IMG/VR virus record: IMGVR_UViG_3300022719_000283
Location: 188,067-252,066 of that record
Length of the DNA: 64,000 nucleotides
Source: a virus
Taxonomy: Duplodnaviria > Heunggongvirae > Uroviricota > Caudoviricetes
Reading direction: 5' to 3' (one strand)
The notes under the pieces are model-generated. The model saw only the letters and a program-made list of their open reading frames with translations, did no database searches and had not been told where the DNA came from. Position numbers and translations under genes: made by a program. Of this stretch, positions 6,819 to 60,974 are shown piece by piece. Every line of letters begins with the position of its first letter. The first letter of the stretch is position 1.

Positions 6819-6830
6819 CGTTTTGTCTCC

Positions 6831-7859: not shown

Positions 7860-7871
7860 TTTCTTTTCTCC

Positions 7872-20353: not shown

Positions 20354-23300
20354 TACCCCTTCTCCTTGACCAACTCTTTCAGAAACAAAGCGCGGAACTG
20401 AGGAACTTCTCCGGCCAGGTCAAGAAGGTAAGTCGCGGCTTTTTTCTTGCGCTCTTTCTTCTCGTTGGTCTCCCGGACCTCCTCCCCCATCTTGTCCCAG
20501 ATCTCGTCGGAGATCTCCTCTTCCTCGGGCCCAAAGGTGGGATACCACTCGTGTTGATCCTTCTGGTCCTTCTTCGCTGCTGCTCGGTTCAGGAATTTGT
20601 CAGCCCCTACATTGGCCTTTTTCTTCGCAACATCTCGCACGTACTCGGTCAGGTACTTGAAGCTTCGGGAATCGGAGTCAAGGTCAAACGACAAATCTGA
20701 ACGGCTTCCGCGATCCTTCCACCAGTCACGAGCTTCCTGACTCGCCATCATCACGTCGAGAAAACGCAGGCCATTAGGAGCTTCCGGTCGGATCTGACGA
20801 ATCTGGTTTTGAATCTCTTCGGGCATCCGCTCAAACTTGGAGCTGGGAAAATTTCCGTCGTACCCAAACCGTGGCCAAACGTAGTATCCGTTGTACTGGT
20901 CATTCCGCCACGGGCCGTGTCCCGCCGCCGACACGTTGATGTGTTTGAACCCGTACTTGTTTGCTGCCGCCACCTGCGTAGCAAACATCTTGAGCCCCAT
21001 CGATGGAGGAGCGGAAGATCTAAGTGTGAAGTGCGAATTGCTAATCGAGTAGGGACTTCTATCCTGAAAACTGATGTAGCGACGCATGCTATTGATGTGA
21101 TCACCGGCCCCCGTCACAGTCACTTCTGATCCTCTAACCTTGATGGAGAGGCTCTTGAGTGATTTGGCCAGACCCCCAGCTCCGGACAAATCCGCGATAA
21201 CATGTCTTGGATTTGGCCCGTCCGCAGGCAAGTTCAACAACCTGCGCAGGGTTCCGTCATTCCCCCCAGTCACCGAAATCCGCACATCGTCGTAACGGCC
21301 GGACTGCATGTTGGGAGAGAGCTCTCCCTTCCCGGGTTCGGCGAATCCCCCAGGAGGTTCCTCAAGTGGGGGCAGAAGGGCCTCGGGTAAACTGCCAGTC
21401 TTGGTGAGGTAAGCCCAGCGTTTCAGGTCGGTTTTCGACAGCTCTTCAGGCTCTCCTTCGGGGTTACCCGTCTCAGCGTTGATAGGTTGAATCTTGAGCT
21501 TGTCCCCGATCGATTCGACACGAACCCATTTGGGGTTCCGGTAGTGCATCGCTTTCACTACCTGACCTTCACGAAGACGGGCGAACGACGTGACGCGTTG
21601 TCCGGTCTCGGCCCCTTCAGGAGAGAGAGCAATCTTGTATTCCCCTCCTTCCAGATCAGCCTTACGAACCCTCGTGGGGCGTCCCACACCACGACCCTCG
21701 TGCACATCTTGAATCTGAAATTGGGTCTTTGTCCGATGCACGACTCGGTACAGGTTATCCCCCTTCTTGACGTACGTACCGGGACCAACATCGGAAGGTG
21801 AGCTCACCGTGTGTCCAGGACCTATGAACCGCTTGTATGGGCCATGATTCCTGATGGAGGCGGCGGTGAAAGGCTCAGGACCTGCCCTCTGCCGGCCGCT
21901 CTCGTGCATGAGTCGAGCCATTACTGTGCCGTCTGGCCGAATTTCGACAACCTCACGATATAGGCTACTACCTTTCAGGTAGTCGTTACGGAAAGTGTCA
22001 CCGACCCGAAGAGCGCCAGGAAGGGTGATCGGTTCGCCCACGGGAACATGGGGTTGTTGCTCCTGCCTCTGTTGCTCCTGCCTCTGTTGCTCCTGCCTCT
22101 GTTGCTCCTGCCTCTGTTGCTCCTGCCTCTGTTGCTCCTGCCTCTGTTGCTCTTCGTCAGGATTCGGCTCGCGTCGATACTGACCGTAATTGCTATACGG
22201 ACCTGATCGCTGAATCTGCAACCGAGGGGTCGTTTGCGGGTCTTCCATAGGAGATCCGTTTCGAGCATTCACGCGCTGTGTCTTGAGATCTCCATTTGGC
22301 AACACTTCCAGCACCTTGCGGACCGTTCCATGGTTACGCAAGACGTTATTGGAGATGACATCTCCAGCACGGAGCTGGTTAGTGTCGTCGATGTTGTCCC
22401 CGACAGAAACTCGCGGCCCCTCGTCCGCTTGCTCGATAATCTTGTGGTTTTCGATCTGAGAACCGCTGATATGGGATCTCCCAATGAGGCCCCCATCCTC
22501 ATCGAGATTCTCAGTCCTGACGTTGTTGCCACTAATCTCCACGATCCTACGACGTGGAGCATTTTGCCGATCCGATTGAATCACATCTCCAACACGCAAA
22601 CGATCGAGACTTTGAACCCGCTCGCCCACTTGAGCTCGAGGTTGTGCCTCTTCCTCGCGCTCTTGAAGAACATAGTTTCGACGGAGGAAGTTCTCTGCGC
22701 CGCTCGTGCGCGTGCGACTACTCCAGGAGCCGTCGTCTTTCTTCCACTGAAACCGAACCACATGATCATCGACACTAACAACGCGAATGTTTTGGGGGGT
22801 GCCTGCTTCGGATTTCAGCACCATGCCCTCGCTGAGCTGATCAAGGCTCTGCACTTGAGATCCTGGCTCCAACCGGCCAACAGGTTGTGGCTGTTGTTGT
22901 TGCTGCTGCTGGCGCTGTTGCTTCCAGGCTTCGTACTCTCGCCCGATTGTGTTACGGAAATTCTCGTAGTTCATCGCGGTGTTGAACCGAATACGGGGTT
23001 CGGCTCGGTTGCGACGACGGCGACGCTGAACTGGATCGGGGTGCTCCACAAGCTCTCGGCCGCCTTGGTGTTTCTCGTTGAGGAACACCTGGAACAGATC
23101 TTCGTTCTCGAATCGGGCGGGCTCTCGACGCGGTCGACGTGGTCGCTGAGGAGCCGGACGGCGAGGAACTCCAGGAGGGGGCGCAAAAAGGTCCAGATCG
23201 TCGGATGGAGCTGCCGGGGGTGCTGGAGCTTGAGGCGCCGCAGGAGGTCGCTCAGGAGCTCGAGAAGGGGCACTCGGGGGCGGCGCGAAGAGATCAAGCT

Positions 23301-23835
23301 CGGGTTCGGGCTCAGGTTGCGCCTCCGCCGGTTCAGGGGCCCTCGATGGGCGTCTTGGAGGAGCACTCGGGGGCGGGGCGAAGAGATCAAGCTCGGGCTC
23401 CCTACGGGCTTGGGAAGGGGCCGCAGGGCGCTCAGGAGCGGGTTCTTGCGCAGCTCCTGGCGGGGGAGCAAAAAGGTCCAGACCATCGTCCTGACGCTGA
23501 GGCTCGGAAGAAAAGGGCTGGAACAGATTGAACTCAACCGCACGACCACCACCCCTCAAAATCGCATCTCGGAGCTCTTCATGCTGCTGAGCTAGATCGA
23601 GGATCTTGGCAGCTCGCTTTTTGCGTTGTTGGGCCTTCTCGCGCCTCCGTTTTTCCATGAGTTCGCGCCTCATCCGGTCCCACACGCTATCCATGATCTT
23701 CTCGTCCTCTTCCGTCAGGACAATCTCTTCGACCAGGCGACGCATCTGGGTCTTCGTCTTGGGGCGCGGTTTTCGGGAACTGGCCATGAGTCGGGTCCTA
23801 AAAGGGTGCAGGTCTCCCGTCCAAGGGAGACCCAT
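20353..23835 (-). CDS. Giant proline-rich protein (1160 aa) with 4 copies of ELDLFAPPP, a (QQRQE)n tract and a C-terminal domain shared with 18191-20353
   Basis: Long ORF. Repeats LDLFAPPPGAAQ, ELDLFAPPPSAP (twice) and DLDLFAPPPGVP. (QQRQE)7 is encoded by the 15-bp tandem repeat. C-terminal GYYVWP domain. Confidence 0.7.
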   Translation of the reverse strand: MGLPWTGDLHPFRTRLMASSRKPRPKTKTQMRRLVEEIVLTEEDEKIMDSVWDRMRRELMEKRRREKAQQRKKRAAKILDLAQQHEELRDAILRGGGRAVEFNLFQPFSSEPQRQDDGLDLFAPPPGAAQEPAPERPAAPSQARREPELDLFAPPPSAPPRRPSRAPEPAEAQPEPEPELDLFAPPPSAPSRAPERPPAAPQAPAPPAAPSDDLDLFAPPPGVPRRPAPQRPRRPRREPARFENEDLFQVFLNEKHQGGRELVEHPDPVQRRRRRNRAEPRIRFNTAMNYENFRNTIGREYEAWKQQRQQQQQQQPQPVGRLEPGSQVQSLDQLSEGMVLKSEAGTPQNIRVVSVDDHVVRFQWKKDDGSWSSRTRTSGAENFLRRNYVLQEREEEAQPRAQVGERVQSLDRLRVGDVIQSDRQNAPRRRIVEISGNNVRTENLDEDGGLIGRSHISGSQIENHKIIEQADEGPRVSVGDNIDDTNQLRAGDVISNNVLRNHGTVRKVLEVLPNGDLKTQRVNARNGSPMEDPQTTPRLQIQRSGPYSNYGQYRREPNPDEEQQRQEQQRQEQQRQEQQRQEQQRQEQQRQEQQPHVPVGEPITLPGALRVGDTFRNDYLKGSSLYREVVEIRPDGTVMARLMHESGRQRAGPEPFTAASIRNHGPYKRFIGPGHTVSSPSDVGPGTYVKKGDNLYRVVHRTKTQFQIQDVHEGRGVGRPTRVRKADLEGGEYKIALSPEGAETGQRVTSFARLREGQVVKAMHYRNPKWVRVESIGDKLKIQPINAETGNPEGEPEELSKTDLKRWAYLTKTGSLPEALLPPLEEPPGGFAEPGKGELSPNMQSGRYDDVRISVTGGNDGTLRRLLNLPADGPNPRHVIADLSGAGGLAKSLKSLSIKVRGSEVTVTGAGDHINSMRRYISFQDRSPYSISNSHFTLRSSAPPSMGLKMFATQVAAANKYGFKHINVSAAGHGPWRNDQYNGYYVWPRFGYDGNFPSSKFERMPEEIQNQIRQIRPEAPNGLRFLDVMMASQEARDWWKDRGSRSDLSFDLDSDSRSFKYLTEYVRDVAKKKANVGADKFLNRAAAKKDQKDQHEWYPTFGPEEEEISDEIWDKMGEEVRETNEKKERKKKAATYLLDLAGEVPQFRALFLKELVKEKG
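22054..22158. repeat. Seven tandem copies of a 15-bp unit (ctgttgctcctgcct), last copy degenerate
   Basis: Read directly at 22054-22158. It lies inside the 1160-aa ORF and encodes QQRQEQQRQE... on the minus strand. Confidence 0.9.
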
Positions 23836-23876: not shown

Positions 23877-25280
23877 CTAGCTCTTGAAGGTGAGCAGCGG
23901 CCGAAGACGAAGGACCGGGCTTGCAAGTCCTTGCTCTTCTTGGATTTTCACGATGGGATCGATGTCCTTGTAGGCTGCGGGAGCTTCCTCCCAGAGCCGC
24001 TCTTCACGAAGTGTCACGCAGTCCACCCCATCGAGTCCAAGATCGAAATCCGGCCGGCCTTTTCGAGTCATCTCAAACCGGGTCCGAGACCGACCCGCCC
24101 CGTGGGAAGCCGACCGCAAGAAACGGTCGTTCCCCAATCCTCGCATTACGTACGAGGATGTTCCCATGGAGCCGGGAATCAGAACCCACTGTCCTTCCCA
24201 GGCCGGCGTCGCACCCTTGCGATGAACGAAGGCATCGTCTTCGTAGGTCACGATGTTATGGGACACGTCGTAGAAACAGCTCGCATCAACATTTCCGAAA
24301 ACCTGACGAAATCGGTAACGCACCATCGTGGAGAGAAGGGCACGGTTCACAGCAGCGAAGTTAGCCGCACATCCCATGGCAAGCATGTACTCGTGGGCGT
24401 CCTCATTGTAGAGCGGGAACACTTCCGGCCACTTGAGCCCTTTCGGCCACTTTTTCTTCGCAATCTCTTGGAACCGTGTACCGATCCCCTTCCCCACCGA
24501 ACGGGAACCTGTGTGAATCATGAACACGATGTCTCCGTACTTCAGGTTGGGCCAGGTCCATTGGAGAGCCTCGTAATCAAGAACCTCTTCGACCATCTGG
24601 ATTTCGACGAAATGGTTCCCTCCTCCGACCGTCCCCAGGTCTGGGTCTCGGATCACGTCCCTGCTGTAGTCGATCCGGTCTTGAACCCACTTGGTGTCGG
24701 ACACGAAAGACCCCTGGTGCCAGATGTACTTGGCATCAAGGGCCAAGTGATCCTTGGCGCGAGCCATCAATCCCATCGGGTTCTTATAGAGCTCCTGTTC
24801 CCAACCATAGGCCCCGTGCTCGTAGATCGCGTGCAGGGTGGACGGAGTCATCGGAAGGTCCCGGGTCCCCAGCAAAAGATCACCGCGAAGTAGCTCCACG
24901 AGCTCGTCCTTGCGAGCGAGGAATTGGTCGACCGTTACGTCGATCAGATCCAAACGCATCCCGCAATTGATGTCCGTCCCGATGGCCTGCGGAATCACCA
25001 TGTCGGCCGTTGCCACAACGCATCCGACAGGAACGATGTTGCCAGGATGAAAGTCGGGAGTGGCACAGGCTTGACACACGTGGCCGCCACTTGGGTGGGA
25101 AGCCGAGGCAAATGACACGAGCTGTTTCACCGCTTTGGTCTCGAGCGGGGAGCCTTCGGGCAAAAGAATCTCAGCCGCCGGGCCTTCGTGAGAGGCGCGA
25201 CGAACCTTGTAAACAGGACCGTCTTGAGAAATCTCGATGCCTTCACGCAGGAGGGCTCGAGCCAGTCGTTTGAATTTCAT
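23877..25280 (-). CDS. rtcB: RNA ligase RtcB (3'-phosphate/5'-hydroxyl RNA ligase)
   Basis: GTVGGGNHFVEIQ, HTGSRSVGKGIG, IPGSMG and SHGAGR are RtcB active-site signatures. The start is set at the internal MKFKRL (residue 50 of the 516-aa ORF) to drop an implausible N-terminal extension. Confidence 0.85.
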   Translation of the reverse strand: MKFKRLARALLREGIEISQDGPVYKVRRASHEGPAAEILLPEGSPLETKAVKQLVSFASASHPSGGHVCQACATPDFHPGNIVPVGCVVATADMVIPQAIGTDINCGMRLDLIDVTVDQFLARKDELVELLRGDLLLGTRDLPMTPSTLHAIYEHGAYGWEQELYKNPMGLMARAKDHLALDAKYIWHQGSFVSDTKWVQDRIDYSRDVIRDPDLGTVGGGNHFVEIQMVEEVLDYEALQWTWPNLKYGDIVFMIHTGSRSVGKGIGTRFQEIAKKKWPKGLKWPEVFPLYNEDAHEYMLAMGCAANFAAVNRALLSTMVRYRFRQVFGNVDASCFYDVSHNIVTYEDDAFVHRKGATPAWEGQWVLIPGSMGTSSYVMRGLGNDRFLRSASHGAGRSRTRFEMTRKGRPDFDLGLDGVDCVTLREERLWEEAPAAYKDIDPIVKIQEEQGLASPVLRLRPLLTFKS

Positions 25281-25429
25281 GATGCTGAACTCCAGTGAAC
25301 CTCTCTCAACCGCGCGGGAGAGAGGCTCGGAAAGGGTCTGGTTGTTCAGCAGCCGCGGCAGTGCGCGGACAGCTCCTTGTAACCCAAGACCCGAAGAAGT
25401 GCAAGCGGGGCTGCCGGTAAGGTGCATGC

Positions 25430-26074
25430 GTGGCCGTCGTCCTTCCCGGCAAGTTCATCTTCCTGGCCCATCCTCACACCGGATCCAGCGCCATGGTCCT
25501 GGCCCTCCAAGACGTGTTCCCGGAAACATTCGATTTACGACCCCACCACATGCGCCTCACCGATGTTCGAAGTCATCAGGGAGGGGTAAGGATCACACAA
25601 ATCAGCCGGATACGTCAGCGTGTTTGGGATGAACGTCCGCACAAACGGATGCGAGATTCCGACGTGGATCCGGAGATGGTGCGGGCAGCTATCCAGGGAA
25701 CTGAGCGCATCTTCACGATCATCCGCAACCCTTACGACTTTCTGGTGACCTGCTACGTGCGCCGAGGACGGGATGCTTCCTTCGAAAAGTTTGTCCAGAG
25801 CTACAACGAGCCACCCTATATCGTGGACGGCCGGCTGTACTACCACGAACCCGACTGCGAGACCGTTTTACGTTGGGAAAAGCTTCAGGTCCAGCTCAAC
25901 AAGCTCATGCGGGAACTGAAGCTCCCCAAGGTCGAGCTCGGGAAACACAACGTCACGAAGGACAAGAAGCCTTGGGAAAGCTACTACACCCCCAAGGCTT
26001 TCGAAATCGTGAACGCACGGTTCAGAAAAGAGTTCGAACCATTCTACGAGCCCCGCAAGTCCGGTGCAGGATAG
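25430..26074 (+). CDS. Sulfotransferase-family protein
   Basis: The N-terminal P-loop-like LAHPHTGSS corresponds to the 5'-PSB PKSGTT motif. IRNPYDFLVTCY matches the 3'-PB motif R[ND]PxDxxVSxY. It is on the plus strand and overlaps the 3' end of the Tpt1 gene by 31 nt in convergent orientation. Confidence 0.5.
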   Translation: MAVVLPGKFIFLAHPHTGSSAMVLALQDVFPETFDLRPHHMRLTDVRSHQGGVRITQISRIRQRVWDERPHKRMRDSDVDPEMVRAAIQGTERIFTIIRNPYDFLVTCYVRRGRDASFEKFVQSYNEPPYIVDGRLYYHEPDCETVLRWEKLQVQLNKLMRELKLPKVELGKHNVTKDKKPWESYYTPKAFEIVNARFRKEFEPFYEPRKSGAG

Positions 26075-26658
26075 ATCCCCTTGCCGATCGAATTGTAACG
26101 ACGGTCCTCTGGCCAGAGCAGAAACTCGATGGGCACGTGATCCGTATACCAGACTCCGTTACCAGTCAGGTAAAACTTGTGCCCCTCATCGTGCATGACC
26201 TTGGCTCGGACCTTGATGATGATCGGACGACCCCGCCGCTCACCCACGCGAATGGCAGTCTCGTAGTCAGGGGATAGATGGACCGCATGACGATTCATCT
26301 TGAGTAGGCCCTCTTCTCGGATCGCAGGTACGAACCTCTCCGGAGTCCCGTGGTACAGACACTCCGGAGGCTCCCTCTCTTCGTATCCGAGGTCCACCGG
26401 AACGGAGTGTCCTTGTCGGGCGCGGATTCGTTCCCCGTCTTCGCTGAGTTCAAACCGTTTCTTGTCGTTGGTGTCGACGACTTCTTGCAGGAGCTCTCGG
26501 GTGAGTCCTCGAGCCCGTTTCTGATCGACAGAGCGCTTGAGTAGCTCATCCACATCGGCCCATCCGGCGTTGTCCAGCTCGATGCCGATTTTGCCCGGGT
26601 TGTGCCGGAGCACCAAGCTCAGGAACTTCGAATAGTTCTTCAGCTTTCGTTCTTCCAT
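26044..26658 (-). CDS. kptA: RNA 2'-phosphotransferase Tpt1/KptA
   Basis: SKFLSLVLRHNPGKIGIELDNAGWADVDEL, RFELSEDGERIRARQGHS, LYHGT and HAVHLS match the conserved Tpt1/KptA blocks. Confidence 0.85.
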   Translation of the reverse strand: MEERKLKNYSKFLSLVLRHNPGKIGIELDNAGWADVDELLKRSVDQKRARGLTRELLQEVVDTNDKKRFELSEDGERIRARQGHSVPVDLGYEEREPPECLYHGTPERFVPAIREEGLLKMNRHAVHLSPDYETAIRVGERRGRPIIIKVRAKVMHDEGHKFYLTGNGVWYTDHVPIEFLLWPEDRRYNSIGKGIYPAPDLRGS

Positions 26659-26668
26659 CGCGGCTCTC

Positions 26669-27001
26669 CTACTCTTCGGGTTCCATCGAAGACATCAACG
26701 GGTAATCGCTTCGACGCGCTAGTTCATGCACAATGGCACATTTGGTTTCGGCGATCTCGTGAGTATAGACCCCGGCCACCGACAGACCTTCTTGATGCAC
26801 TTGCATCGTGATCCGTTCCGCTTCGGTGCGCCCCTTACGGAAGACCTGCTGAACGAGCTGTACCACCCATTCGACAGGGGTGAAGTCATCGTTGTGAAGA
26901 AGGACTTTGTAGCGCCGGGGTTTTTGGAGTTCCTGCTTCTTTTTCTCGAGAAGACCCACTCCTCCCTGGCGGTTGTCTTCAGTATCATCGCGCTCAGGCA
27001 T
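26669..27001 (-). CDS. clpS: ClpS, ATP-dependent Clp protease adaptor
   Basis: YKVLLHNDDFTPVEWVVQLVQQVF...AERITMQVHQEGLSVAGVYTHEIAETK matches the ClpS core (YKV.LLNDDYTPMEFV...VH..G...CGVYT.EVAETK). Confidence 0.8.
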   Translation of the reverse strand: MPERDDTEDNRQGGVGLLEKKKQELQKPRRYKVLLHNDDFTPVEWVVQLVQQVFRKGRTEAERITMQVHQEGLSVAGVYTHEIAETKCAIVHELARRSDYPLMSSMEPEE

Positions 27002-27006
27002 CGTTC

Positions 27007-27654
27007 CTACTTTCTACGCCCCCGCTCAAAGATGCGCCAAACTTCAGTCACCTCCGGGCCAAACAGCCGGCTAGGGACCTCCTCCACAAGACGCATCTCA
27101 CGGTACTCCGGAACCTGTTGATCCTCGAGCGCGTGGAGGGTCTGCCAAGGAACAAGACCTCCCGTCTCCTCAATCGGATTCACGTTCTTGGACGACCTGT
27201 AGTAGAAGCCTGACACGAGCCCCCACCGGAGCCCGTCGATGCGACGGAAAAGCTCTTGGTAGTACTCCGTGTTCTGAGCTGCCGAGGCGGTGATCTCCGT
27301 GGAGAACAAACTGACGAAGGCCGTGATGGGCTTTCCCTCGAGCTCGGCGAGAAATGCAGGATCCCGGTAATTACCGGGACGTGGGTCTTGAGGTTCCGAA
27401 GGGTTTGAACTGGCGTTCTCATCGAACCCGACGTAACTCTCCCAAATTCCGTGTTGCCGGAACTCCTGCGATCGTCCACAACCCAGATCAACAACCCGGG
27501 GGACGCCGGCCACCATGGTGAAAAAGCGCAAGGCTCGGTCATGAGCCCGCCGCACCCCAGTTTCTGCCAAGTAGCTATCGTACTGCTCGTAAAAATCGTG
27601 GTCGTATCCCATCGAATCCTCTACATAGTACGAGGTCTCGATAGAATCAGTCAT
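27007..27654 (-). CDS. Putative SAM-dependent methyltransferase-like protein
   Basis: VVDLGCGRS resembles SAM-binding motif I (D/E-x-G-x-G). This is weak evidence. Confidence 0.35.
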   Translation of the reverse strand: MTDSIETSYYVEDSMGYDHDFYEQYDSYLAETGVRRAHDRALRFFTMVAGVPRVVDLGCGRSQEFRQHGIWESYVGFDENASSNPSEPQDPRPGNYRDPAFLAELEGKPITAFVSLFSTEITASAAQNTEYYQELFRRIDGLRWGLVSGFYYRSSKNVNPIEETGGLVPWQTLHALEDQQVPEYREMRLVEEVPSRLFGPEVTEVWRIFERGRRK

Positions 27655-27666
27655 GTGACAGATGCG

Positions 27667-27888
27667 TTAAGGGGTCAAACGGCGAGCAATCCCAGCATTT
27701 GCCCACATGCGCACTTCTTCCAGATGGGTCATGGCCAGGGACTGCTCACGAGAATCGGGGCAAAGCGCCACAATCAGGTCTGCCAGCTCGCGGACCTTGT
27801 CCCCGATTTTCGTGTATCGCTCGGGCTGGTCTCCGTGAGGAGGGTGGTAGGTGAACCGGGTATCGAGCTCTTCTTGGGTGAGAGGCAT
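27667..27888 (-). CDS. Small conserved phage-type protein (73 aa, RFTYHPP motif)
   Basis: MPLTQEELDTRFTYHPPHGDQPERY...ALCPDSREQSLAMTHLEEVRMWANAGIARR. The author recalls seeing this as a hypothetical in actinobacterial phages; function unknown. Confidence 0.45.
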   Translation of the reverse strand: MPLTQEELDTRFTYHPPHGDQPERYTKIGDKVRELADLIVALCPDSREQSLAMTHLEEVRMWANAGIARRLTP

Positions 27889-27910
27889 CCTCTACCATAC
27901 CCGATCAAGC

Positions 27911-28096
27911 TCAATCGGGTTTTCCATGACTCTCGAGAGTCACGTTACCGTGCTCGTCGACAGTGGTCTTGATGCCGTACTTCCCCCGAATGCCTCCTTT
28001 GCCGCATCCAGGATTCGGGCAAAAGTAGTTGCCAGTCTCGAGATCCCGCTCGAACTCGGCCCCGCACTCACGACAGCTCATCTTGATGCTTCCCAC
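27911..28096 (-). CDS. Small zinc-ribbon protein (61 aa)
   Basis: CRECG...CPNPGCGKGG is a four-Cys ribbon. Confidence 0.4.
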   Translation of the reverse strand: MGSIKMSCRECGAEFERDLETGNYFCPNPGCGKGGIRGKYGIKTTVDEHGNVTLESHGKPD

Positions 28097-28116
28097 GGTG
28101 CGACTCTACCGGTGCC

Positions 28117-28434
28117 TCACTCTTTGAGGCGCCATTCGTATATCGGTACTTGCCGCACATTTCCGCCCAGAGGACGAACGTTGTTGGCTGTACGCCAACG
28201 GCAAAAATGCTTGCCCTCCCCACCCCCCTTCACAAAACACCACGGGCACCGGGGCCGGGCGTCCACCACACTAGGATGGTGCCCGCGCCCTTCCGCTTGG
28301 GCGATCTCATCAACCTGGCTAGCCTGCATGGCTACCAGGCGGTACCCCACAACCACTCGCTCGTAGCGAGGGTCGTGCTCCTTACTGGGGTTGGGGTTGT
28401 TGTTCTGGCTCTTGTTGGAGTTGGACGTGTTCAT
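28117..28434 (-). CDS. Hypothetical protein (105 aa)
   Basis: ORF only; a plus-strand alternative overlaps it. Confidence 0.25.
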   Translation of the reverse strand: MNTSNSNKSQNNNPNPSKEHDPRYERVVVGYRLVAMQASQVDEIAQAEGRGHHPSVVDARPRCPWCFVKGGGEGKHFCRWRTANNVRPLGGNVRQVPIYEWRLKE

Positions 28435-28539
28435 GACGAGTTGCGAAGTGCAACTACGTCATGGCGGCTGTCTCCAAGGGAGCTTCAGTTGTGGTGCAGT
28501 GCGCACGAGTCCTCAAGATAGAGGGAGCTCGGATCGGAG

Positions 28540-29061
28540 TCAAGTCGAAAAAAGATCAAGAGCCGAAGGCTGATTCTCCCCCAGCCTCTCTCGGATTTCG
28601 TGCTCCGTCGCAAGCTCCCCGTCCTTCAGGATGTGAAGGAGCTCGATGCCTTGCTCGACCAGATCAGCCCCCACCAAGCGCCGCCGATGGCATCCAGAAG
28701 GGTCAGCTTCGCTACACATAAGCGTCACTTCACCGAGCTCCTTGTTCATCTCAAAGCCACGAAGGAGCTCCTGAAGGCCATCCTGGTACTTCTGCGAGGC
28801 CCGGATCTTGTCGTAGTCGGGAGCCCCCATTGTGAAAAGGTTAGGGTCGTCCGGAAGACCCCCCAGAGAGTGCCCCATCCAAACGTACGGAACCCCGGCC
28901 CTCCGCAAGTCCTCTGCAATCACGTACCGGTTGTACTGAGGGTTGTGGCGGCTAAAAGGCTTGCTCCGGATGTCGACGACCACGGCGATATTGCAGCCGC
29001 GCAGACGCCTGATGAGCTCCTCAGTGGACAGGTTGCTGTGGCCGATCGTGTAGCTCTTCAT
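28540..29061 (-). CDS. DUF488-family protein
   Basis: MKSYTIGHSNLSTEELIRRLRGCNIAVVVDIRSKPFSRHNPQY matches the DUF488 N-terminal consensus TIGHS....EF..LL....I..VVDVR..P.SR..P.F. Confidence 0.6.
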   Translation of the reverse strand: MKSYTIGHSNLSTEELIRRLRGCNIAVVVDIRSKPFSRHNPQYNRYVIAEDLRRAGVPYVWMGHSLGGLPDDPNLFTMGAPDYDKIRASQKYQDGLQELLRGFEMNKELGEVTLMCSEADPSGCHRRRLVGADLVEQGIELLHILKDGELATEHEIRERLGENQPSALDLFST

Positions 29062-29245
29062 CGAGCTCCCTGTCCAGGGCCTGGCACTGTTCCGGCGTCA
29101 ATTCGAACACGGAGGTATCGTCGTCGGGCAGGATGCACTTCGCCGCCGCCTCGGCTTCTTGGCGCGTCTTGTAAGGCCCGACACATCCTTCGTCGGGATA
29201 CTCTGTGATGTAGAAGGCGTAGCCGCCTTCGGACCAGTTGTTCAT
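29021..29245 (-). CDS. Small hypothetical protein (74 aa)
   Basis: ORF overlapping its neighbours by a few nt on both sides, as in an operon. Confidence 0.3.
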   Translation of the reverse strand: MNNWSEGGYAFYITEYPDEGCVGPYKTRQEAEAAAKCILPDDDTSVFELTPEQCQALDRELDEELHDRPQQPVH

Positions 29246-29919
29246 GTTTCACTTCCGTTGAGTAGGTCCATGATGTTGGGACCTTCGATGACTTCGGGTT
29301 TCTTCCGCCACGTCCACGACTTGCGTGCTTCGAAGGGGAGTCGCCCATGTTTGGCCTCGAAAGCTTCAAGGAATTGGCGAGTCCCTTTGTTGACATACCC
29401 CCCACCAGTAATCTTGCCATACTCGGGCTCATATCGGGCCAGAATGCGGTCCATCTCTTCGTCCCGAGTAGTCTTAGCAACGATCGACGCCGCCGAAACG
29501 GACACGTGTTTTGTGTCGGCTTTGTTCTCCGCGATGAGGTTAGGCCATTCTGAAGAAAGGCAACCGAAGATAGGAGCTCCGTCACACACGATATGGTCTT
29601 CAGAAGTGGCCTCAAGCATCTTGAGGAGCTCAAGAGCTCCTCGCCTTTCAAGATCATCCAAGGCACCCCGCTCCACGTAGGTGTCAATCTCGGCAGGCTC
29701 GAAGATAAGGACCGCACAGTGACATCGCTGGTAAATCCAGGGGCGAGCCTTAAGCCGTGCCGTTTTGGCTTTCCCTCCACTACCGTATTTCTTGCTGTCT
29801 TGGATGCCCAACCCTCGGAGCTCGGTCTCATGCTCTGGAGTCAAGGCGACAGCCGCCATCACCAGTGGCCCCAATACAGGTCCGCGTCCAGCTTCATCGA
29901 TCCCGATCAAGCGCACCAC
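29242..29919 (-). CDS. rnhB: Ribonuclease HII
   Basis: LIGIDEAGRGPVLGPLVMAAV, DSKK and SAASIVAK are RNase HII catalytic and substrate-binding motifs. Confidence 0.85.
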   Translation of the reverse strand: MVRLIGIDEAGRGPVLGPLVMAAVALTPEHETELRGLGIQDSKKYGSGGKAKTARLKARPWIYQRCHCAVLIFEPAEIDTYVERGALDDLERRGALELLKMLEATSEDHIVCDGAPIFGCLSSEWPNLIAENKADTKHVSVSAASIVAKTTRDEEMDRILARYEPEYGKITGGGYVNKGTRQFLEAFEAKHGRLPFEARKSWTWRKKPEVIEGPNIMDLLNGSET

Positions 29920-30828: not shown

Positions 30829-31121
30829 CCCACCTCCACCAACTTTTCACGAAAGGTCTTGCGGGTGATCGCGTTGTAATCCCGCCGTGTGCGCGTCATC
30901 GGCTCCAGAAGTTTAGCCGACAGCTTGCGGCGTCCCTCCGGTGTACGGAAGTACTCCGACATCAGCTTTTGATTTCGCTCTCTTTGAGTGAGCATCTTTC
31001 CGGAGCCTTTGCATAAGTCGCAAGGGCGCCGGGTGACCAGCAGTACGATCTCGCCTTGGCCCAGACAGTCAGGACATTCGGCCATGCCCTGACTATACCG
31101 GCCAATCAATACGGATGTCAC
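30825..31121 (-). CDS. DnaJ-type CxxCxGxG zinc-finger protein whose C-terminal 40 aa mimic the capsid-protein N-terminus
   Basis: CPDCLGQGEI...CDLCKGSGK is the DnaJ-type finger. KLMSEYFRTPEGRRKLSAKLLEPMTRTRRDYNAITRKTF has 22 of 38 residues identical to KLISEYIKTPTGRAKLAASLTQPLRTRRDYTSVGRKTF at the N-terminus of 60096-60974. Confidence 0.6.
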   Translation of the reverse strand: MTSVLIGRYSQGMAECPDCLGQGEIVLLVTRRPCDLCKGSGKMLTQRERNQKLMSEYFRTPEGRRKLSAKLLEPMTRTRRDYNAITRKTFREKLVEVG

Positions 31122-34291: not shown

Positions 34292-34849
34292 CTACCCCGT
34301 ACTCCGAATCCGTTGCCGGGCCTCCATGATGGCGAACCCGAGCAGATTCTGTCCCCGCCACTTGTGAGGGTTATGGGCGGCCTTATCTTCGCGCCGAAGA
34401 CCGATGCCCCAAATGCAGTCGTGTGGGCTGGCCTCGACGAGCACCATGTCCTTAGTGCCCAGCAGGTACTTTCGAAGCTCGGTATCCTGGCTGAACTTGG
34501 CAACATTGCCTTTGACCACAGCCTCGAACTTGTGAGCGTCCCACTTGGCCTGATCCCAGTTACGAACCTGACGACCCAGCTCCTTCGCTTCGTCGGGGCC
34601 ACCACAGGCGAGGATCTGCTGGAGTGTGTCCTCGTCACCCATGACCCGAGCCTTTTCGGCCATCATCCCATGCTCGGCCGTAGGGTACTCGATACCGTCA
34701 ATCTCGAAGTCCGAAAAGTGCCACTGACTGAAGACATAGGGCCCGATGGTGCTGACATCGTGTCCCTTGCGGCCCCAAAACATCAGGAACTCGGGACGGT
34801 GCCCTTCGTCCCAAGCTTTGGTGAGAGTTTCTCGATCTCGAAATTCCAT
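34292..34849 (-). CDS. NADAR (YbiA-like) domain protein
   Basis: FWG...FSQWH..DFEIDGIEYPTAEHGMMAEKA...AKELGRQV..WDQAKWD...NVAKFSQDTELRKYLLGT...LVEASPHDCIWGIGL matches the NADAR/DUF1768 blocks. The start is set at the internal MEFRD. Confidence 0.65.
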   Translation of the reverse strand: MEFRDRETLTKAWDEGHRPEFLMFWGRKGHDVSTIGPYVFSQWHFSDFEIDGIEYPTAEHGMMAEKARVMGDEDTLQQILACGGPDEAKELGRQVRNWDQAKWDAHKFEAVVKGNVAKFSQDTELRKYLLGTKDMVLVEASPHDCIWGIGLRREDKAAHNPHKWRGQNLLGFAIMEARQRIRSTG

Positions 34850-34904
34850 ACGCCCCTTATACCCGATGCGGATCTCGCGATCCTGGATTTTCACGGAAAG
34901 CGCG

Positions 34905-35426
34905 CTACGGCTTCCGAGAAGCCCACCGCTTGATCGCGCGACGATCCTTCCCCGTCGCTCGGTCGCTGAGCAGGGTACCTTCCAGGTGGTCGTATTCGTG
35001 TTGGAGGGCCACCGAAAACAGGTGGTTGTGGGTCGCATCTAGCGTGAACTGTTCACCCTGGCGATTAAAAGCCGTTACCTTCACCCACTCCTGGCGCTCT
35101 ACCTCGGCAAGTAGACCAGGAAAACTGAGGCAGCCTTCGGGACGCACAACCTGATTGTCATTAGTAGGTTCGAGTTCAGGATTGATGAAGACCCAAGGCT
35201 CCACCAGGCGGTTGCCGTTAATGGGTCGCTGGTCGATGATGAACAGCCGCAAGTTGCGTCCCACTTGTGGCGCCGCAAGCCCAACTCCCTCCTGGTAGAA
35301 CATGGTGTAGATCATGTTCTCGATGAACTCCTGGAGACCCTCGAGCTCGTCGAGATCTACCGGAACGCTTGGCGCCTCAAGACTCGGTGCCGGGTATTCG
35401 AGGACCGTGAGAAGCTTCGAAGGCAT
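34905..35426 (-). CDS. def: Peptide deformylase
   Basis: GLAAPQVG, EGCLSFPG and HEYDHLEG are the three canonical PDF motifs. Confidence 0.85.
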   Translation of the reverse strand: MPSKLLTVLEYPAPSLEAPSVPVDLDELEGLQEFIENMIYTMFYQEGVGLAAPQVGRNLRLFIIDQRPINGNRLVEPWVFINPELEPTNDNQVVRPEGCLSFPGLLAEVERQEWVKVTAFNRQGEQFTLDATHNHLFSVALQHEYDHLEGTLLSDRATGKDRRAIKRWASRKP

Positions 35427-36272: not shown

Positions 36273-36274
36273 CC

Positions 36275-40667: not shown

Positions 40668-40915
40668 TCGTCTTTCGGGTCAAGTGCAGGACCATCCGGC
40701 TCAGCCATAGGCTCCCCAGGATCAAGGCTATCGTCTAATGCGTTCGCAAGGTGATCGCGTGCGCGTGTAACAAAGCCCGGCGGCTTATCCATACCATTCA
40801 ACCACTGTTGAAGTTCCGCCCAAGCCTGCACGACGTTTTGAAACTGCCGACGTGCCAGGTGATTGTCGGGCAGTTGCCGCAGATATTCTTTCATTGACAT
40901 TTCCCTATCAGCCAT
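40664..40915 (-). CDS. 83-aa ORF between tnpA and tnpB
   Basis: Its start is 22 nt after the tnpA stop and its stop overlaps the tnpB start by 4 nt (ATGA). Helical-looking composition. Confidence 0.4.
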   Translation of the reverse strand: MADREMSMKEYLRQLPDNHLARRQFQNVVQAWAELQQWLNGMDKPPGFVTRARDHLANALDDSLDPGEPMAEPDGPALDPKDE

Positions 40916-40936
40916 CGATGCCTCCTTGAATTCCGG

Positions 40937-58054: not shown

Positions 58055-58096
58055 ACCCTATCTGAAAACATACGCAAACAGTCGGGTAGTTTCTTC

Positions 58097-59068: not shown

Positions 59069-59081
59069 CGAAAAACGCTCC

Positions 59082-60095: not shown

Positions 60096-60974
60096 CTAAC
60101 GGGTGACGGTGAGGCGCGTGAGGCCGCGGGGGTTGTAAGCCCCGATGCCGAGGTTCTCGAAGACCGAGAACCCGATGGTGCGCGCCTTGGGATCGTCCGC
60201 GGACAGGACCGTGAGCTCCGTGCGAACAGGGATGCGGCCAAACATCTCTGGCTCGCAGCACACGTAGACCGTGCCGGCGGGCACGATGCGGCTCGTGATG
60301 ACCTGGGCACCCCAGAGGGTAGCCTGAAGGCCGGTCTTGAGCAGCGTCGCCTGGCTCTCGATGTCCAGGATGTCCCGACCGAACTTGCGGATGTCGGCGT
60401 AGTCCCTGGCATTCATGTACACGCGCGCGACCCGGAGGTCGTGGCGCTCGATGAGAGCGAAGGCGTCGGCCAGCACAGCACCCGAGATCGGAGCGACCAC
60501 GGGAATGTCCGGGTTGAGACCACCGGGCAACGAATCGAAGCCGTTGGTGGCGATGGCATCCAGAACAGCGAAGACACGCTCGTCCTCGGCGGCCTGGATC
60601 TGCGCACGGGCAAGATCCTGGGCACGCTCGATGAGGTCGAAACGACGCTCCTTGATCTGGGTGAGCGGGATCTCGGGGTTCGAGGCAATCTCGAACAGCG
60701 GGAAGATCACACGACGCGGCTTGGTGACCGCGATGATGTTCTCGCCCTCTTCACCGACCACGTAGGCGGTGACATCGGGATCCTTGTCGTAGATCGGCAG
60801 GGCACCATCGGGAAGCTGCTCGACCAAGAAGGTCTTGCGGCCAACCGAAGTGTAGTCCCGTCGAGTACGAAGGGGTTGGGTGAGAGAAGCTGCGAGCTTG
60901 GCACGACCGGTTGGGGTCTTGATGTACTCGGAGATCAGCTTCTGCTTGACTGCGTTGGAAACACCAGTGGGCAT
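60096..60974 (-). CDS. HK97-fold major-capsid-protein-like (292 aa)
   Basis: Position: downstream of an acidic scaffold-like gene and a decoration-like gene. Size and composition fit. A conserved ILDIE...GLQATLWG region is present. No search was run, so the call is moderate. Confidence 0.5.
   Translation of the reverse strand: MPTGVSNAVKQKLISEYIKTPTGRAKLAASLTQPLRTRRDYTSVGRKTFLVEQLPDGALPIYDKDPDVTAYVVGEEGENIIAVTKPRRVIFPLFEIASNPEIPLTQIKERRFDLIERAQDLARAQIQAAEDERVFAVLDAIATNGFDSLPGGLNPDIPVVAPISGAVLADAFALIERHDLRVARVYMNARDYADIRKFGRDILDIESQATLLKTGLQATLWGAQVITSRIVPAGTVYVCCEPEMFGRIPVRTELTVLSADDPKARTIGFSVFENLGIGAYNPRGLTRLTVTR

What the first reader, a model, noticed from the sequence alone, without database searches (positions are those of the whole stretch)
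23877..29919. Phage-borne RNA end-healing cluster: RtcB and Tpt1/KptA with ClpS, DUF488, RNase HII and a sulfotransferase
RtcB (23877-25280) and Tpt1 (26044-26658) sit about 0.8 kb apart in one minus-strand run. The same run carries ClpS, a methyltransferase-like gene, a DUF488 protein and RNase HII. RtcB is the sealing enzyme after tRNA anticodon-nuclease or ribotoxin cleavage (established). Tpt1 removes the junction 2'-phosphate left by Trl1-type ligases, which RtcB does not produce, so Tpt1 next to RtcB is functionally odd. Bacterial Tpt1 enzymes can also ADP-ribosylate 5'-phosphate nucleic-acid ends (established for some homologs). A counter-defence or RNA-processing module that repairs host-inflicted tRNA or rRNA breaks, or caps ends, is a reasonable hypothesis.
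Basis: partly seen in the sequence, partly recalled or inferred. Interest (0 to 1): 0.7.

Follow-up and report, generated by a model that had tools for sequence, protein, structure and literature searches.

The report
Huge-phage RtcB and Tpt1 genes
An uncultivated giant phage (contig of about 619 kb) carries intact genes for two RNA-repair enzymes, the ligase RtcB and the 2'-phosphotransferase Tpt1, side by side, but comparison with relatives shows them to be separable accessory tools of kinds already known from large phages, not one new pathway.

Summary
The gene calls are correct. RtcB (23877-25280) and Tpt1 (26044-26658) are intact, keep every catalytic residue, and lie 764 nt apart. ClpS, DUF488 and RNase HII are confirmed. 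The methyltransferase and sulfotransferase calls hold at fold level only.

The window is phage. It encodes an HK97-type major head protein, 76% identical to that of a 485-kb uncultured phage and 39% to that of Bacillus phage G. The exact capsid and Tpt1 sequences are each recorded on a contig of 618,736 bp.

The two enzymes are not one unit. A convergent plus-strand gene separates them. In related phages, ClpS, Tpt1 and the sulfotransferase-fold gene persist while RtcB comes and goes. One lineage has a frameshifted Tpt1 beside an intact RtcB.

Among the 80 closest bacterial Tpt1 loci, one has RtcB within 6 kb and 20 have NADAR. Immediate neighbours there are mostly ADP-ribose hydrolases. In other phages, Tpt1 sits beside other tRNA-repair enzymes.

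Best reading: an accessory, host-conflict arm of a giant phage holding parallel RNA-repair and NAD/ADP-ribose tools. Phage RtcB, KptA/Tpt1 and ClpS are already described. This is a new member of a known kind, of modest interest.

The parts
23877..25280 (-). RtcB, a GTP/Mn2+-dependent 3'-phosphate/5'-OH RNA ligase (467 aa)
   Evidence: PF01139, E = 9e-93; phrog_1075. All metal ligands and the GMP-accepting His are kept in the alignment to 1uc2. The nearest named relatives are Myxococcota chromosomal RtcB at 50-57% identity. It is present in only some related phages (versus 48, 49).
25281..25429 (.). 149-nt divergent spacer between RtcB and the plus-strand gene; presumed site of RtcB's own promoter
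   Evidence: Read from the sequence. The consensus promoter scan found nothing above chance, so the promoter is inferred from gene geometry only.
25430..26074 (+). Sulfotransferase-fold protein (214 aa), convergent with Tpt1
   Evidence: 48 homologues at 44-85% identity, all from metagenomes and none with a Pfam domain. AF2 pLDDT 82; all top PDB fold hits are sulfotransferases (TPST1, E = 5.6e-4, TM 0.44-0.48). The 3'-phosphate-binding pattern R99-x3-D103-x3-S/T107 is conserved. In the 5'-phosphosulfate loop the usual Lys is His (PHTGSS). It keeps this position next to Tpt1 in L010, L017 and L018.
26044..26658 (-). [quoted passage not shown]
   Evidence: PF01885, E = 4.6e-49; NF002014 above its cut-off. 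Best solved relative is Runella slithyformis Tpt1, 7kw8, E = 6e-56. R18, H19, R79 and R123 are invariant, and the tail is absent from the aligned bacterial homologues.
26669..27001 (-). ClpS, the N-degron adaptor for ClpAP (110 aa)
   Evidence: PF02617, E = 1.3e-29. The NDD motif and the pocket His are kept in the alignment to 3dnj. There are 10 nt to the Tpt1 start codon. It lies upstream of Tpt1 in all six related phage loci examined.
27007..27612 (-). Class I SAM-dependent methyltransferase-fold protein of unknown substrate (ORF runs to 27654; likely start at 27612)
27667..27888 (-). Acb2/Tad1 hairpin-domain protein (73 aa); candidate sponge for immune signalling nucleotides
   Evidence: PF24729, E = 6e-21; phrog_1454, E = 1e-25. 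Conserved in all six related phage loci examined.
27911..28096 (-). Zinc-ribbon protein (61 aa), function unknown
   Evidence: Weak Zn-ribbon hits. Conserved in relatives at 52-77% identity.
28117..28434 (-). Conserved hypothetical protein (105 aa)
   Evidence: No family hit. Conserved in L010, L016, L017 and L018.
28540..29061 (-). DUF488 protein (173 aa), function unknown
   Evidence: PF04343, E = 2.6e-19. No solved relative by sequence. It lies next to RNase HII in L010 and L016, and one small gene away in the window and in L018.
29021..29245 (-). Small hypothetical protein (74 aa) between DUF488 and RNase HII
   Evidence: ORF listed and called as a gene in L002. Only weak similarity in relatives.
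29242..29919 (-). RNase HII (225 aa): removal of ribonucleotides or primers from DNA, not RNA end healing
   Evidence: PF01351, E = 1.2e-29; TIGR00729 scores 118 bits, just under its cut-off of 123.
34292..34894 (-). NADAR ADP-ribosyl hydrolase-family protein, 7.6 kb from Tpt1 in the same minus-strand block
   Evidence: PF08719, E = 2e-50. It is 44-50% identical to NADAR genes lying within 6 kb of Tpt1 in 20 of 80 bacterial loci. Best solved relative is 8bau. Not found in the L018 relative.
34905..35426 (-). Peptide deformylase (accessory gene of the same block)
   Evidence: PF01327, E = 2.8e-41. Conserved in L018.
60096..60974 (-). HK97-fold major head protein: the evidence that the window is phage
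   Evidence: In a tblastn of this protein joined to neighbouring window proteins, the place in uncultured phage LR745208.1 (485 kb) is 75.6% identical (2 pieces, E = 3e-164). The head protein alone is 48% identical to the Tunturiibacter phage Tunturi_5 major head protein and 38.6% to Bacillus phage G gp27. Cluster members are named 'HK97 family phage major capsid protein', and the exact sequence is recorded on a contig of 618,736 bp.

Best explanation
The region is part of the accessory, host-conflict arm of an uncultivated giant phage related to Bacillus phage G (contig of about 619 kb).

RtcB and Tpt1 are two independent RNA-damage tools that work in parallel, not as successive steps of one pathway.
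- RtcB directly reseals RNAs cut by metal-independent host ribonucleases. These include anticodon nucleases and HEPN or toxin RNases, which leave 2',3'-cyclic phosphate and 5'-OH ends. This rests on established chemistry of the family and intact residues here; the targets are inferred.
- Tpt1 is transcribed with ClpS, and in this phage also with a SAM methyltransferase-fold gene, from a tightly packed unit. It uses NAD+ to remove 2'-phosphates from RNA. RtcB neither makes nor can use such phosphates. This rests on established chemistry of the family and an intact tetrad; the source of the 2'-phosphate is unknown. It could be a junction made by another ligase, or an end left when a cyclic phosphate is opened by a 2H phosphoesterase.
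[quoted passage not shown] Such enzymes are the usual neighbours of Tpt1 in bacteria, and the phage's NADAR is the only candidate of this kind seen in the window (inferred).

The RtcB-Tpt1 adjacency arose because an RtcB gene of Myxococcota type was gained, or retained, next to a pre-existing ClpS-Tpt1-sulfotransferase-fold unit in some lineages.

ClpS, RNase HII, DUF488, the Acb2/Tad1-like gene and peptide deformylase are separate takeover or counter-defence functions that share the neighbourhood.
For: - Intact active sites in both enzymes.
- Gene geometry: 5-nt and 10-nt spacers join methyltransferase, ClpS and Tpt1, whereas a convergent plus-strand gene and a 149-nt divergent spacer separate Tpt1 from RtcB.
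- Relatives L010, L016 and L013 keep both genes. L017 and L018 keep ClpS, Tpt1 and the sulfotransferase-fold gene but lack RtcB within 10 kb. L013 and L014 have Tpt1 split by a frameshift beside an intact RtcB.
- RtcB-carrying Tpt1 sequences are scattered on a Tpt1 tree.
- The two genes have different origins. RtcB is nearest to Myxococcota chromosomal genes, and a 59% relative sits alone in a bacterial chromosome. Tpt1 is nearest to Planctomycetota, Acidobacteriota and Bacteroidota genes.
- Among the 80 closest bacterial Tpt1 loci, RtcB lies within 6 kb in 1 and NADAR in 20. Of 136 immediate neighbours, 31 family hits are to ADP-ribose-processing families: ADP-ribosylglycohydrolase 11, Macro 7, NADAR 5, PARG 4, Nudix 4.
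- Other phages place Tpt1 beside different tRNA-repair enzymes.
- Phage origin is shown.
- Phage-encoded KptA, RtcB and ClpS have been described before (PMC7824862, PMC9503650).
Against: - No activity was measured.
- No enzyme that would create an RNA 2'-phosphate was found in the 64-kb window. There was no match to the RNA ligase, Thg1-like, Macro, phosphoesterase or CCA-adding genes that flank Tpt1 in other phages. The rest of the roughly 619-kb genome was not seen.
- The adjacency is rare. Only 1 of 80 bacterial loci has it, and none of the 15 best places among 50,697 phage records joins the two genes. Yet it is kept over RtcB divergence down to 73% identity, which could reflect selection for linkage.
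- The direction of change, gain or loss of RtcB, is unresolved. The tree is built from a protein of about 200 residues, and RtcB presence was inferred for several tips only from matching contig lengths.
- NADAR lies 7.6 kb away and is missing from relative L018. NADAR enzymes tested so far remove ADP-ribose from guanine bases and are not known to act on Tpt1 products (PMC11833690).
Confidence: 0.6

Rival explanations
1. Coupled repair pathway. RtcB and Tpt1 act on the same damaged RNA in sequence as one counter-defence module, perhaps with the methyltransferase marking the repaired site.
For: - The two genes are 764 nt apart and keep that order in four lineages with RtcB identity of 73-100%.
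- The adjacency is rare elsewhere, so it is unlikely to be a common accident.
- Phage Tpt1 genes recur beside tRNA-repair enzymes.
- The top Foldseek hit of the methyltransferase model is the HEN1 RNA 2'-O-methyltransferase domain.
Against: - RtcB chemistry leaves no 2'-phosphate. Removing a terminal 2'-phosphate gives a diol end that RtcB cannot join (established chemistry; PMC6097658, PMC6573784).
- An opposite-strand gene separates the two genes.
- RtcB is absent from L017 and L018, and Tpt1 is frameshifted in L013 and L014.
- The methyltransferase gene is present only in the window and in L010.
Confidence: 0.15
2. Tpt1 is not here for RNA repair. It acts as an NAD+/ADP-ribose conflict enzyme, working with the sulfotransferase-fold protein, NADAR and the Acb2/Tad1-like protein, and RtcB is merely a neighbour. 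Its substrate could be nucleic-acid 5'-phosphate ends that it caps with ADP-ribose, a phosphorylated NAD-derived metabolite such as NADP(H), or a product of host immunity.
For: - Bacterial homologues sit among ADP-ribose hydrolases and NAD salvage genes (NAPRTase, isochorismatase/nicotinamidase-type, NrtR) rather than ligases.
- Relatives insert an AAA_28 (NadR-type) P-loop kinase, with a weak CYTH match, directly upstream of Tpt1.
- An Acb2/Tad1 hairpin gene and NADAR lie in the same block.
- The convergent sulfotransferase-fold partner is conserved in four loci, and most phage-group Tpt1 sequences carry the extra C-terminal tail.
- Some Tpt1 enzymes cap 5'-phosphates or act on NADP(H) (PMC6573784, PMC10622864).
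Against: - The nearest characterised enzyme, Runella Tpt1, shows only the canonical internal 2'-phosphate removal (PMC6573784).
- The full canonical tetrad is kept.
- Other phages place Tpt1 with clear tRNA-repair enzymes.
- Nothing shows that the sulfotransferase-fold protein acts on the same substrate, and its usual catalytic Lys is replaced by His.
Confidence: 0.2
3. The genes are ordinary bacterial chromosome, or a plasmid or genomic island, and not phage.
For: - The RtcB is 50-59% identical to chromosomal Myxococcota genes.
- The window also holds a histidine kinase with a response regulator and an IS607-type transposon.
Against: - An HK97 major head protein lies in the same window, and the exact capsid and Tpt1 sequences are each recorded on a contig of 618,736 bp.
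- Several window proteins match proteins of jumbo phages.
- Homing endonucleases are dense across the window.
- There are no housekeeping genes and no tRNAs.
- The Tpt1 has no close match (best 59%) in one genome for each of 185,579 species.
Confidence: 0.02

Closest known systems
RNA-repair gene sets of jumbo phages (RtcB or Rnl ligases, KptA/Tpt1, 2H, Macro), described by Iyer, Aravind and colleagues (PMC7824862, PMC9503650)
   Same: A large phage carries its own RtcB, KptA/Tpt1 and ClpS. These are patchily distributed accessory genes. The rationale is the same: repairing tRNA cut by host nucleases, with NAD+ as co-substrate for KptA.
   Different: Here the two genes are adjacent. That was not seen in the two cultured Tpt1-bearing phages inspected or in the best-ranked places among 50,697 phage records. 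No 2H, Macro or ATP-dependent ligase partner was found in the window. Tpt1 carries an extra C-terminal tail seen in most of its phage group and has a conserved sulfotransferase-fold neighbour.
Runella slithyformis Tpt1 and its putative repair cluster (Tpt1, methyltransferase-HIT, ATP-dependent ligase, HD-Pnk; PMC6097658)
   Same: It is the closest solved and characterised Tpt1 (E = 6e-56, same catalytic tetrad). In both cases Tpt1 lies near a methyltransferase-fold gene and a nucleic-acid ligase.
   Different: The ligase here is RtcB (GTP-dependent, 3'-phosphate ends), not an ATP-dependent enzyme. There is no HD-Pnk and no HIT domain. The phage methyltransferase has no detectable homologue beside any of the 80 bacterial Tpt1 genes sampled.
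Escherichia coli rtcBA RNA-repair operon
   Same: An RtcB ligase with the same active-site residues. Its presumed role is resealing RNA after ribotoxin cleavage.
   Different: No RtcA cyclase, RtcR regulator or archease was found nearby. The phage gene is of a Myxococcota-type lineage of about 470 residues. It scores well below the cut-offs of the NCBIfam RtcB models it matches (203.8 bits against 407 for NF007153; 155.6 against 271.8 for TIGR03073).
Fungal and plant Trl1-Tpt1 tRNA splicing
   Same: The same Tpt1 chemistry is expected: an internal 2'-phosphate is transferred to NAD+.
   Different: No Trl1-type ligase, cyclic phosphodiesterase or kinase that would create the 2'-phosphate junction was found in the window.
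Bacterial Tpt1 neighbourhoods rich in ADP-ribose hydrolases (ARH, Macro, NADAR, PARG, Nudix)
   Same: The phage Tpt1 is 50-59% identical to these bacterial genes. The phage has a NADAR 44-50% identical to the Tpt1-linked NADARs.
   Different: In the phage, NADAR lies 7.6 kb away, not adjacent, and is not kept in relative L018. No ARH, Macro or PARG gene was found in the window.
Phage T4 Pnkp-Rnl1 repair of PrrC-cleaved tRNA
   Same: The same biological logic: a phage-encoded enzyme undoes host cleavage of tRNA.
   Different: The enzymes are unrelated, and this is one-step RtcB sealing instead of end healing followed by ATP-dependent ligation.

Membership tests
RtcB RNA ligase (PF01139) | Full-length profile match above the curated cut-off | tested here: met
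   312 bits against a cut-off of 27, covering profile positions 10-425 of 426.
RtcB RNA ligase (PF01139) | Metal-binding Asp, Cys and His residues and the GMP-accepting His | tested here: met
   D103, C106, N222, H223, H256, H341 and H393 align with D95, C98, N202, H203, H234, H329 and H404 of 1uc2.
RtcB RNA ligase (PF01139) | GTP/Mn2+-dependent joining of 3'-phosphate or 2',3'-cyclic phosphate ends to 5'-OH ends | not testable with these tools
   Needs a biochemical assay.
Tpt1/KptA RNA 2'-phosphotransferase (PF01885) | Profile match above the curated cut-offs | tested here: met
   Pfam 167 bits against 26; NCBIfam equivalog NF002014 246.6 bits against 239.
Tpt1/KptA RNA 2'-phosphotransferase (PF01885) | Catalytic Arg-His-Arg-Arg tetrad | tested here: met
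   R18, H19, R79 and R123 are invariant in 21 sequences and align with R16, H17, R64 and R119 of Runella Tpt1 (PMC6097658).
Tpt1/KptA RNA 2'-phosphotransferase (PF01885) | NAD+-dependent removal of an internal RNA 2'-phosphate | not testable with these tools
   Needs a biochemical assay or yeast tpt1 complementation.
Single co-inherited RtcB-Tpt1 repair operon | Both genes in one transcription unit | tested here: not met
   A convergent plus-strand gene (25430-26074) and a 149-nt divergent spacer lie between them. No transcript data are available.
Single co-inherited RtcB-Tpt1 repair operon | Co-occurrence across relatives | tested here: not met
   RtcB is absent from L017 and L018, which keep Tpt1. 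Tpt1 is frameshifted in L013 and L014, which keep RtcB. RtcB lies within 6 kb in only 1 of 80 bacterial Tpt1 loci.
Trl1-type (2'-phosphate-generating) ligation pathway | An ATP-dependent ligase that requires a 2'-phosphate end, plus a cyclic phosphodiesterase and a 5' kinase | tested here: not met
   None was detected among the window ORFs scanned or by tblastn with the phage RNA-ligase and other repair proteins. Only 64 kb of about 619 kb was seen.
ClpS adaptor (PF02617) | Profile match plus the N-degron pocket residues (NDD motif and His) | tested here: met
   102 bits against 23. 'HNDDFTP' and 'VHQEG' align with the Caulobacter ClpS pocket.
PAPS-dependent sulfotransferase | Sulfotransferase fold | tested here: met
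   AF2 pLDDT 82. The first 43 Foldseek PDB hits are all sulfotransferases, but only the best passes E = 0.001 and similarity is modest (best E = 5.6e-4, TM 0.44-0.48).
PAPS-dependent sulfotransferase | 5'-phosphosulfate loop with a catalytic Lys/Arg, and the 3'-phosphate motif R-x7-S | tested here: inconclusive
   The 3' motif, R99...S/T107, is conserved. The loop reads P-H-T-G-S-S, with His where Lys or Arg is usual. The motif definitions are from my own knowledge of the family.
Hen1 RNA 3'-end 2'-O-methyltransferase | Specific similarity to the Hen1 methyltransferase domain beyond the generic class I fold | tested here: not met
Tailed phage with HK97-fold capsid (Bacillus phage G-like giant phages) | Major head protein homologous to those of characterised phages, on the same DNA | tested here: met
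   Window 60096-60974 is 38.6% identical to phage G gp27 and 48% to the Tunturi_5 major head protein. A place joining it with the next gene is 75.6% identical in LR745208.1. The exact capsid and Tpt1 sequences are each recorded on a contig of 618,736 bp.

The most novel reading that the evidence does not exclude
The stable unit in this phage group is ClpS, a Tpt1 with an extra C-terminal tail, and a convergent sulfotransferase-fold protein found only in this group. In relatives it also includes a NadR-type kinase. This unit could be a new NAD+-dependent counter-defence device that acts on a phosphorylated or ADP-ribosylated nucleic acid or nucleotide made by host immunity. RtcB would then have been recruited in some lineages to reseal the RNA afterwards.
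Probability: 0.12. Interest if true: 0.7.

Novelty: new member of a known kind. Interest (0 to 1): 0.3.

Why it matters
What Tpt1 does in organisms without a fungal-type tRNA ligase is still an open question. Phages that keep an intact Tpt1 are natural experiments on it.

This locus adds a giant-phage lineage in which Tpt1 is stably linked to ClpS and to a sulfotransferase-fold gene, and only variably to RtcB. The bacterial survey shows that the closest Tpt1 genes sit with ADP-ribose hydrolases, not with ligases.

That points experiments toward the NAD/ADP-ribose side of the reaction and toward substrates other than RtcB products. In itself the finding does not reveal a new kind of system.

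Tried and rejected
- DNA-level search of the region against 50,697 phage records found only a 202-nt weak match inside the Acb2/Tad1-like gene.
- No tRNA or tmRNA genes and no Rfam family in the whole window.
- Promoter and terminator scans were at chance level, so they say nothing about transcription units.
- DUF488 has no solved relative by sequence. The literature gives no function; one paper reports only a fusion to a ParB-type CTPase fold.
- tblastn of the window with the RNA ligase, CCA-adding enzyme, Thg1-like, Macro, phosphoesterase, HD, R2K, MBL and AAA_28 proteins that flank Tpt1 in other phages gave no hits.
- A joined query of the whole block against phage records showed no record with Tpt1 and RtcB in one place among the best-ranked hits. 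Co-occurrence elsewhere in the same genome could not be counted, because only the top rows are listed.
- The literature search for experimental work on phage RtcB or Tpt1 as counter-defence found only comparative-genomic papers.
- Ordinary host chromosome was considered and rejected.

Full report
**1. What is there**

- RtcB, 23877-25280: PF01139, E = 9e-93.
- Tpt1, 26044-26658: PF01885, E = 4.6e-49. The NCBIfam equivalog NF002014 scores 246.6 bits against a cut-off of 239.
- ClpS, 26669-27001.
- DUF488, 28540-29061.
- RNase HII, 29242-29919.

Both enzymes keep their catalytic residues. In the alignment with Pyrococcus horikoshii RtcB, the metal ligands, the residues of the GNHF and HTGSR motifs and the GMP-accepting histidine are all present: D103, C106, N222, H223, H256, H341 and H393. 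Tpt1 keeps the Arg-His-Arg-Arg tetrad, R18, H19, R79 and R123. Its best solved relative is Runella slithyformis Tpt1, 7kw8, at E = 6e-56. ClpS keeps the NDD motif and the pocket histidine.

Two calls hold only at fold level.
- The 'sulfotransferase' (25430-26074) is on the plus strand. It has 48 homologues, all metagenomic. Its model (pLDDT 82) matches sulfotransferases in every one of the first 43 Foldseek hits. It keeps the R-x3-D-x3-S/T 3'-phosphate motif, but has His where the phosphosulfate loop normally has Lys or Arg.

**2. It is a giant phage**

- Window 60096-60974 encodes an HK97-type major head protein. A tblastn query joining it with neighbouring window proteins gave a place 75.6% identical in the uncultured 485-kb phage LR745208.1. 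The head protein alone is 48% identical to that of Tunturiibacter phage Tunturi_5 and 38.6% to gp27 of Bacillus phage G.
- The exact capsid sequence and the exact Tpt1 sequence are each recorded on a contig of 618,736 bp. Cluster mates of the capsid protein are named 'HK97 family phage major capsid protein'.
- Other window proteins match jumbo phages, including LR745208.1, Xanthomonas phage XacN1 and a 258-kb Vibrio phage.
- The window is dense in homing endonucleases: GIY-YIG, T5orf172, three LAGLIDADG genes and DUF7487.
- It has no tRNA gene, no Rfam match and no housekeeping genes.
- The Tpt1 has no close match in one genome for each of 185,579 species; the best is 59% identical.

The refutation condition 'ordinary host chromosome' therefore fails.

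**3. Anatomy argues against one unit**

The methyltransferase, ClpS and Tpt1 genes are packed with 5-nt and 10-nt spacers, each preceded by a ribosome-binding-site-like sequence. The plus-strand gene overlaps the 3' end of Tpt1 by 31 nt. RtcB starts 149 nt beyond the start of that gene, pointing the other way. RtcB therefore most likely has its own promoter. This is an inference, because the promoter and terminator scans were at chance level.

**4. Relatives**

RtcB homologues at 73-84% identity lie on metagenomic contigs of up to 171 kb. These contigs share a backbone: peptide deformylase, Band 7, RNase HII, DUF488, Acb2/Tad1, ClpS, Tpt1, then very large proteins and a DSPc phosphatase. Between these anchors there are many insertions and deletions.

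- L010, L016 and L013 have RtcB just downstream of Tpt1.
- L017 and L018, whose Tpt1 is 68-70% identical to the window's, keep ClpS, Tpt1 and the convergent sulfotransferase-fold gene. They have no RtcB within 10 kb.
- In L013 and L014, Tpt1 is split by a frameshift while RtcB is intact.
- On a neighbour-joining tree of the phage Tpt1 sequences, those associated with RtcB are scattered. This tree is weak: the protein is short and some presence calls rest on matching contig lengths.

The two genes also have different origins. The nearest named RtcB relatives are chromosomal genes of Myxococcota at 50-57% identity. A 59% relative sits alone in a 439-kb bacterial contig. The nearest cellular Tpt1 genes are from Planctomycetota, Acidobacteriota and Bacteroidota.

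Most phage-group Tpt1 sequences (8 of the 9 aligned) share a C-terminal tail of about 22 residues that the aligned bacterial enzymes lack.

**5. What Tpt1 usually sits next to**

- Bacteria. Among the 80 bacterial loci closest to this Tpt1, RtcB lies within 6 kb in one. NADAR lies within 6 kb in 20, spread over at least ten genera in four phyla. Of 136 immediate neighbours, 11 match ADP-ribosylglycohydrolase, 7 Macro, 5 NADAR, 4 microbial PARG and 4 Nudix. There are also NAPRTase and isochorismatase-family genes and NrtR regulators. No RNA ligase family is among the 25 commonest.
- Other phages. Viral contigs L006 and L007 have Macro, Tpt1, a Thg1-like polymerase and a phosphoesterase in a row. 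L019 has Tpt1 with an R2K ATP-grasp protein, an ATP-dependent RNA ligase, an aminoacyl-tRNA synthetase-like gene and a CCA-adding enzyme.
- Cultured phages. Tpt1 occurs in 98 records and RtcB in 659. The two were not adjacent in the two Tpt1-bearing genomes inspected. A joined query found no record with both genes in one place among the best-ranked hits.

**6. Interpretation**

RtcB joins 3'-phosphate or 2',3'-cyclic phosphate ends to 5'-OH ends and leaves no 2'-phosphate. Tpt1 removes an internal 2'-phosphate by transfer to NAD+. The closest characterised enzyme, Runella Tpt1, does only that. It is reported inactive in 5'-ADP-ribose capping and in terminal phosphate removal (PMC6097658, PMC6573784). 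A terminal 2'-phosphate removed by Tpt1 would leave a diol end that RtcB cannot use. The two enzymes therefore cannot be successive steps of one pathway.

The best-supported picture is a modular toolkit. RtcB directly reseals nuclease-cut RNA. Tpt1 deals with 2'-phosphorylated RNA from some other route. Its ADP-ribose cyclic phosphate by-product ties it to ADP-ribose-processing enzymes, of which NADAR is the only one seen in this window. Each tool is gained and lost on its own. I put this at 0.6.

There are three rivals.
- A truly coupled pathway: 0.15.
- An NAD/ADP-ribose conflict role for Tpt1 unrelated to repair: 0.2. This is encouraged by the bacterial neighbourhoods, by the NadR-type AAA_28 kinase inserted upstream of Tpt1 in relatives, and by the conserved sulfotransferase-fold partner.
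- Non-phage origin: about 0.02.

**7. Comparison with what is known, and verdict**

Phage-encoded RtcB, KptA/Tpt1 and ClpS, and the idea that they counter host attack on tRNA, are laid out in the jumbo-phage and NAD-ADP-ribose surveys of Iyer, Aravind and colleagues (PMC7824862, PMC9503650). The puzzle of Tpt1 in taxa lacking a fungal-type ligase is stated in the Tpt1 literature (PMC6573784).

What is particular here:
- the direct adjacency of the two genes;
- the size of the phage;
- the C-terminal tail on Tpt1 in most of the phage group;
- its conserved sulfotransferase-fold neighbour.

None of these amounts to a new kind of system. This is a new member of a known kind, with interest 0.3.

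Noticed in passing
window 27667-27888 (-): A 73-aa protein with an Acb2/Tad1 hairpin domain (PF24729, E = 6e-21; phrog_1454). These families are known as phage sponges for CBASS and Thoeris signalling nucleotides.
   Followed up: partly
window 34292-34894 (-); bacterial loci L026, L030, L037, L044, L045, L050, L054, L056, L060, L061, L070, L074, L081, L082, L090-L092, L096, L097, L099: NADAR genes 44-50% identical to the phage NADAR lie within 6 kb of Tpt1 in 20 of the 80 closest bacterial Tpt1 loci. They are often directly adjacent, and the loci span four phyla. This linkage is much stronger than any with RtcB (1 of 80).
   Followed up: partly
window 60096-60974 (-), with fragments at 53786-53992 and 30852-30971: The HK97-type major head protein gene has two short paralogous fragments elsewhere in the window: 42% identity over 69 aa and 62% over 40 aa. 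It is preceded by a 512-aa highly acidic ORF (61841-63379) that looks like a scaffold protein.
   Followed up: partly
window 6144-8537 (-): Three tandem paralogous genes (224, 342 and 221 aa) share the N-terminus MPYIIM(K/R)R(N/T)DIP. The middle one weakly matches the tail tube proteins of Rhodobacter phages (38% identity, E = 6e-5).
   Followed up: partly
window 18191-23835 (-): Two very large paralogous proteins (720 and 1160 aa) share a domain of about 290 aa. They carry repeated 'DLDLFAPPPG' and 'QQRQE' motifs and match no family. Even larger counterparts (up to 2044 aa) follow Tpt1 or RtcB in related phage loci.
   Followed up: no
L010 6439-8577; L016 6934-8822; L018 8034-9967; L017 9260-9988: Related phages insert two genes between ClpS and Tpt1 that the window lacks. 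One is a 234-242-aa gene with a weak papain-like match. The other is a 380-461-aa AAA_28 (NadR-type) P-loop kinase, with a weak CYTH match at its C-terminus in L016; L017 carries only the first gene.
   Followed up: partly
L013 3079-3626 and L014 2939-3486: In a lineage whose RtcB is 73% identical to the window's, Tpt1 is split by a frameshift into 135-aa and 42-aa ORFs. This is seen in two sequencing runs, while RtcB next to it is intact.
   Followed up: partly
window 39225-41683 (-): An IS607-type element inside the phage genome: a MerR-HTH plus serine-recombinase TnpA (40937-41683) next to a TnpB/Cas12f-like protein (39225-40667).
   Followed up: no
window 35505-37444 (+): A response regulator and a PAS-domain histidine kinase are encoded on the opposite strand, within the otherwise minus-strand phage block.
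   Followed up: no
window 54939-56886 (-): A ParB/Srx-like protein lies next to a PAPS-reductase + DUF3440 protein. This looks like an IbrB/IbrA-type pair; that name is from my own knowledge and only the Pfam domains of the larger gene were tested. It is followed by three LAGLIDADG homing endonuclease genes (56849-59963) just upstream of the capsid gene.
   Followed up: no
L019 11256-16228; L006 4926-8534; L007 8631-12383: In other viral contigs Tpt1 is embedded in clear tRNA-repair sets. L019 has an R2K ATP-grasp protein, an MBL/Apyc1-like protein, RNA ligase PF09414, a class I aminoacyl-tRNA synthetase-like gene and a CCA-adding enzyme. L006 and L007 have Macro, Tpt1, a Thg1-like polymerase and a calcineurin-like phosphoesterase.
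   Followed up: partly
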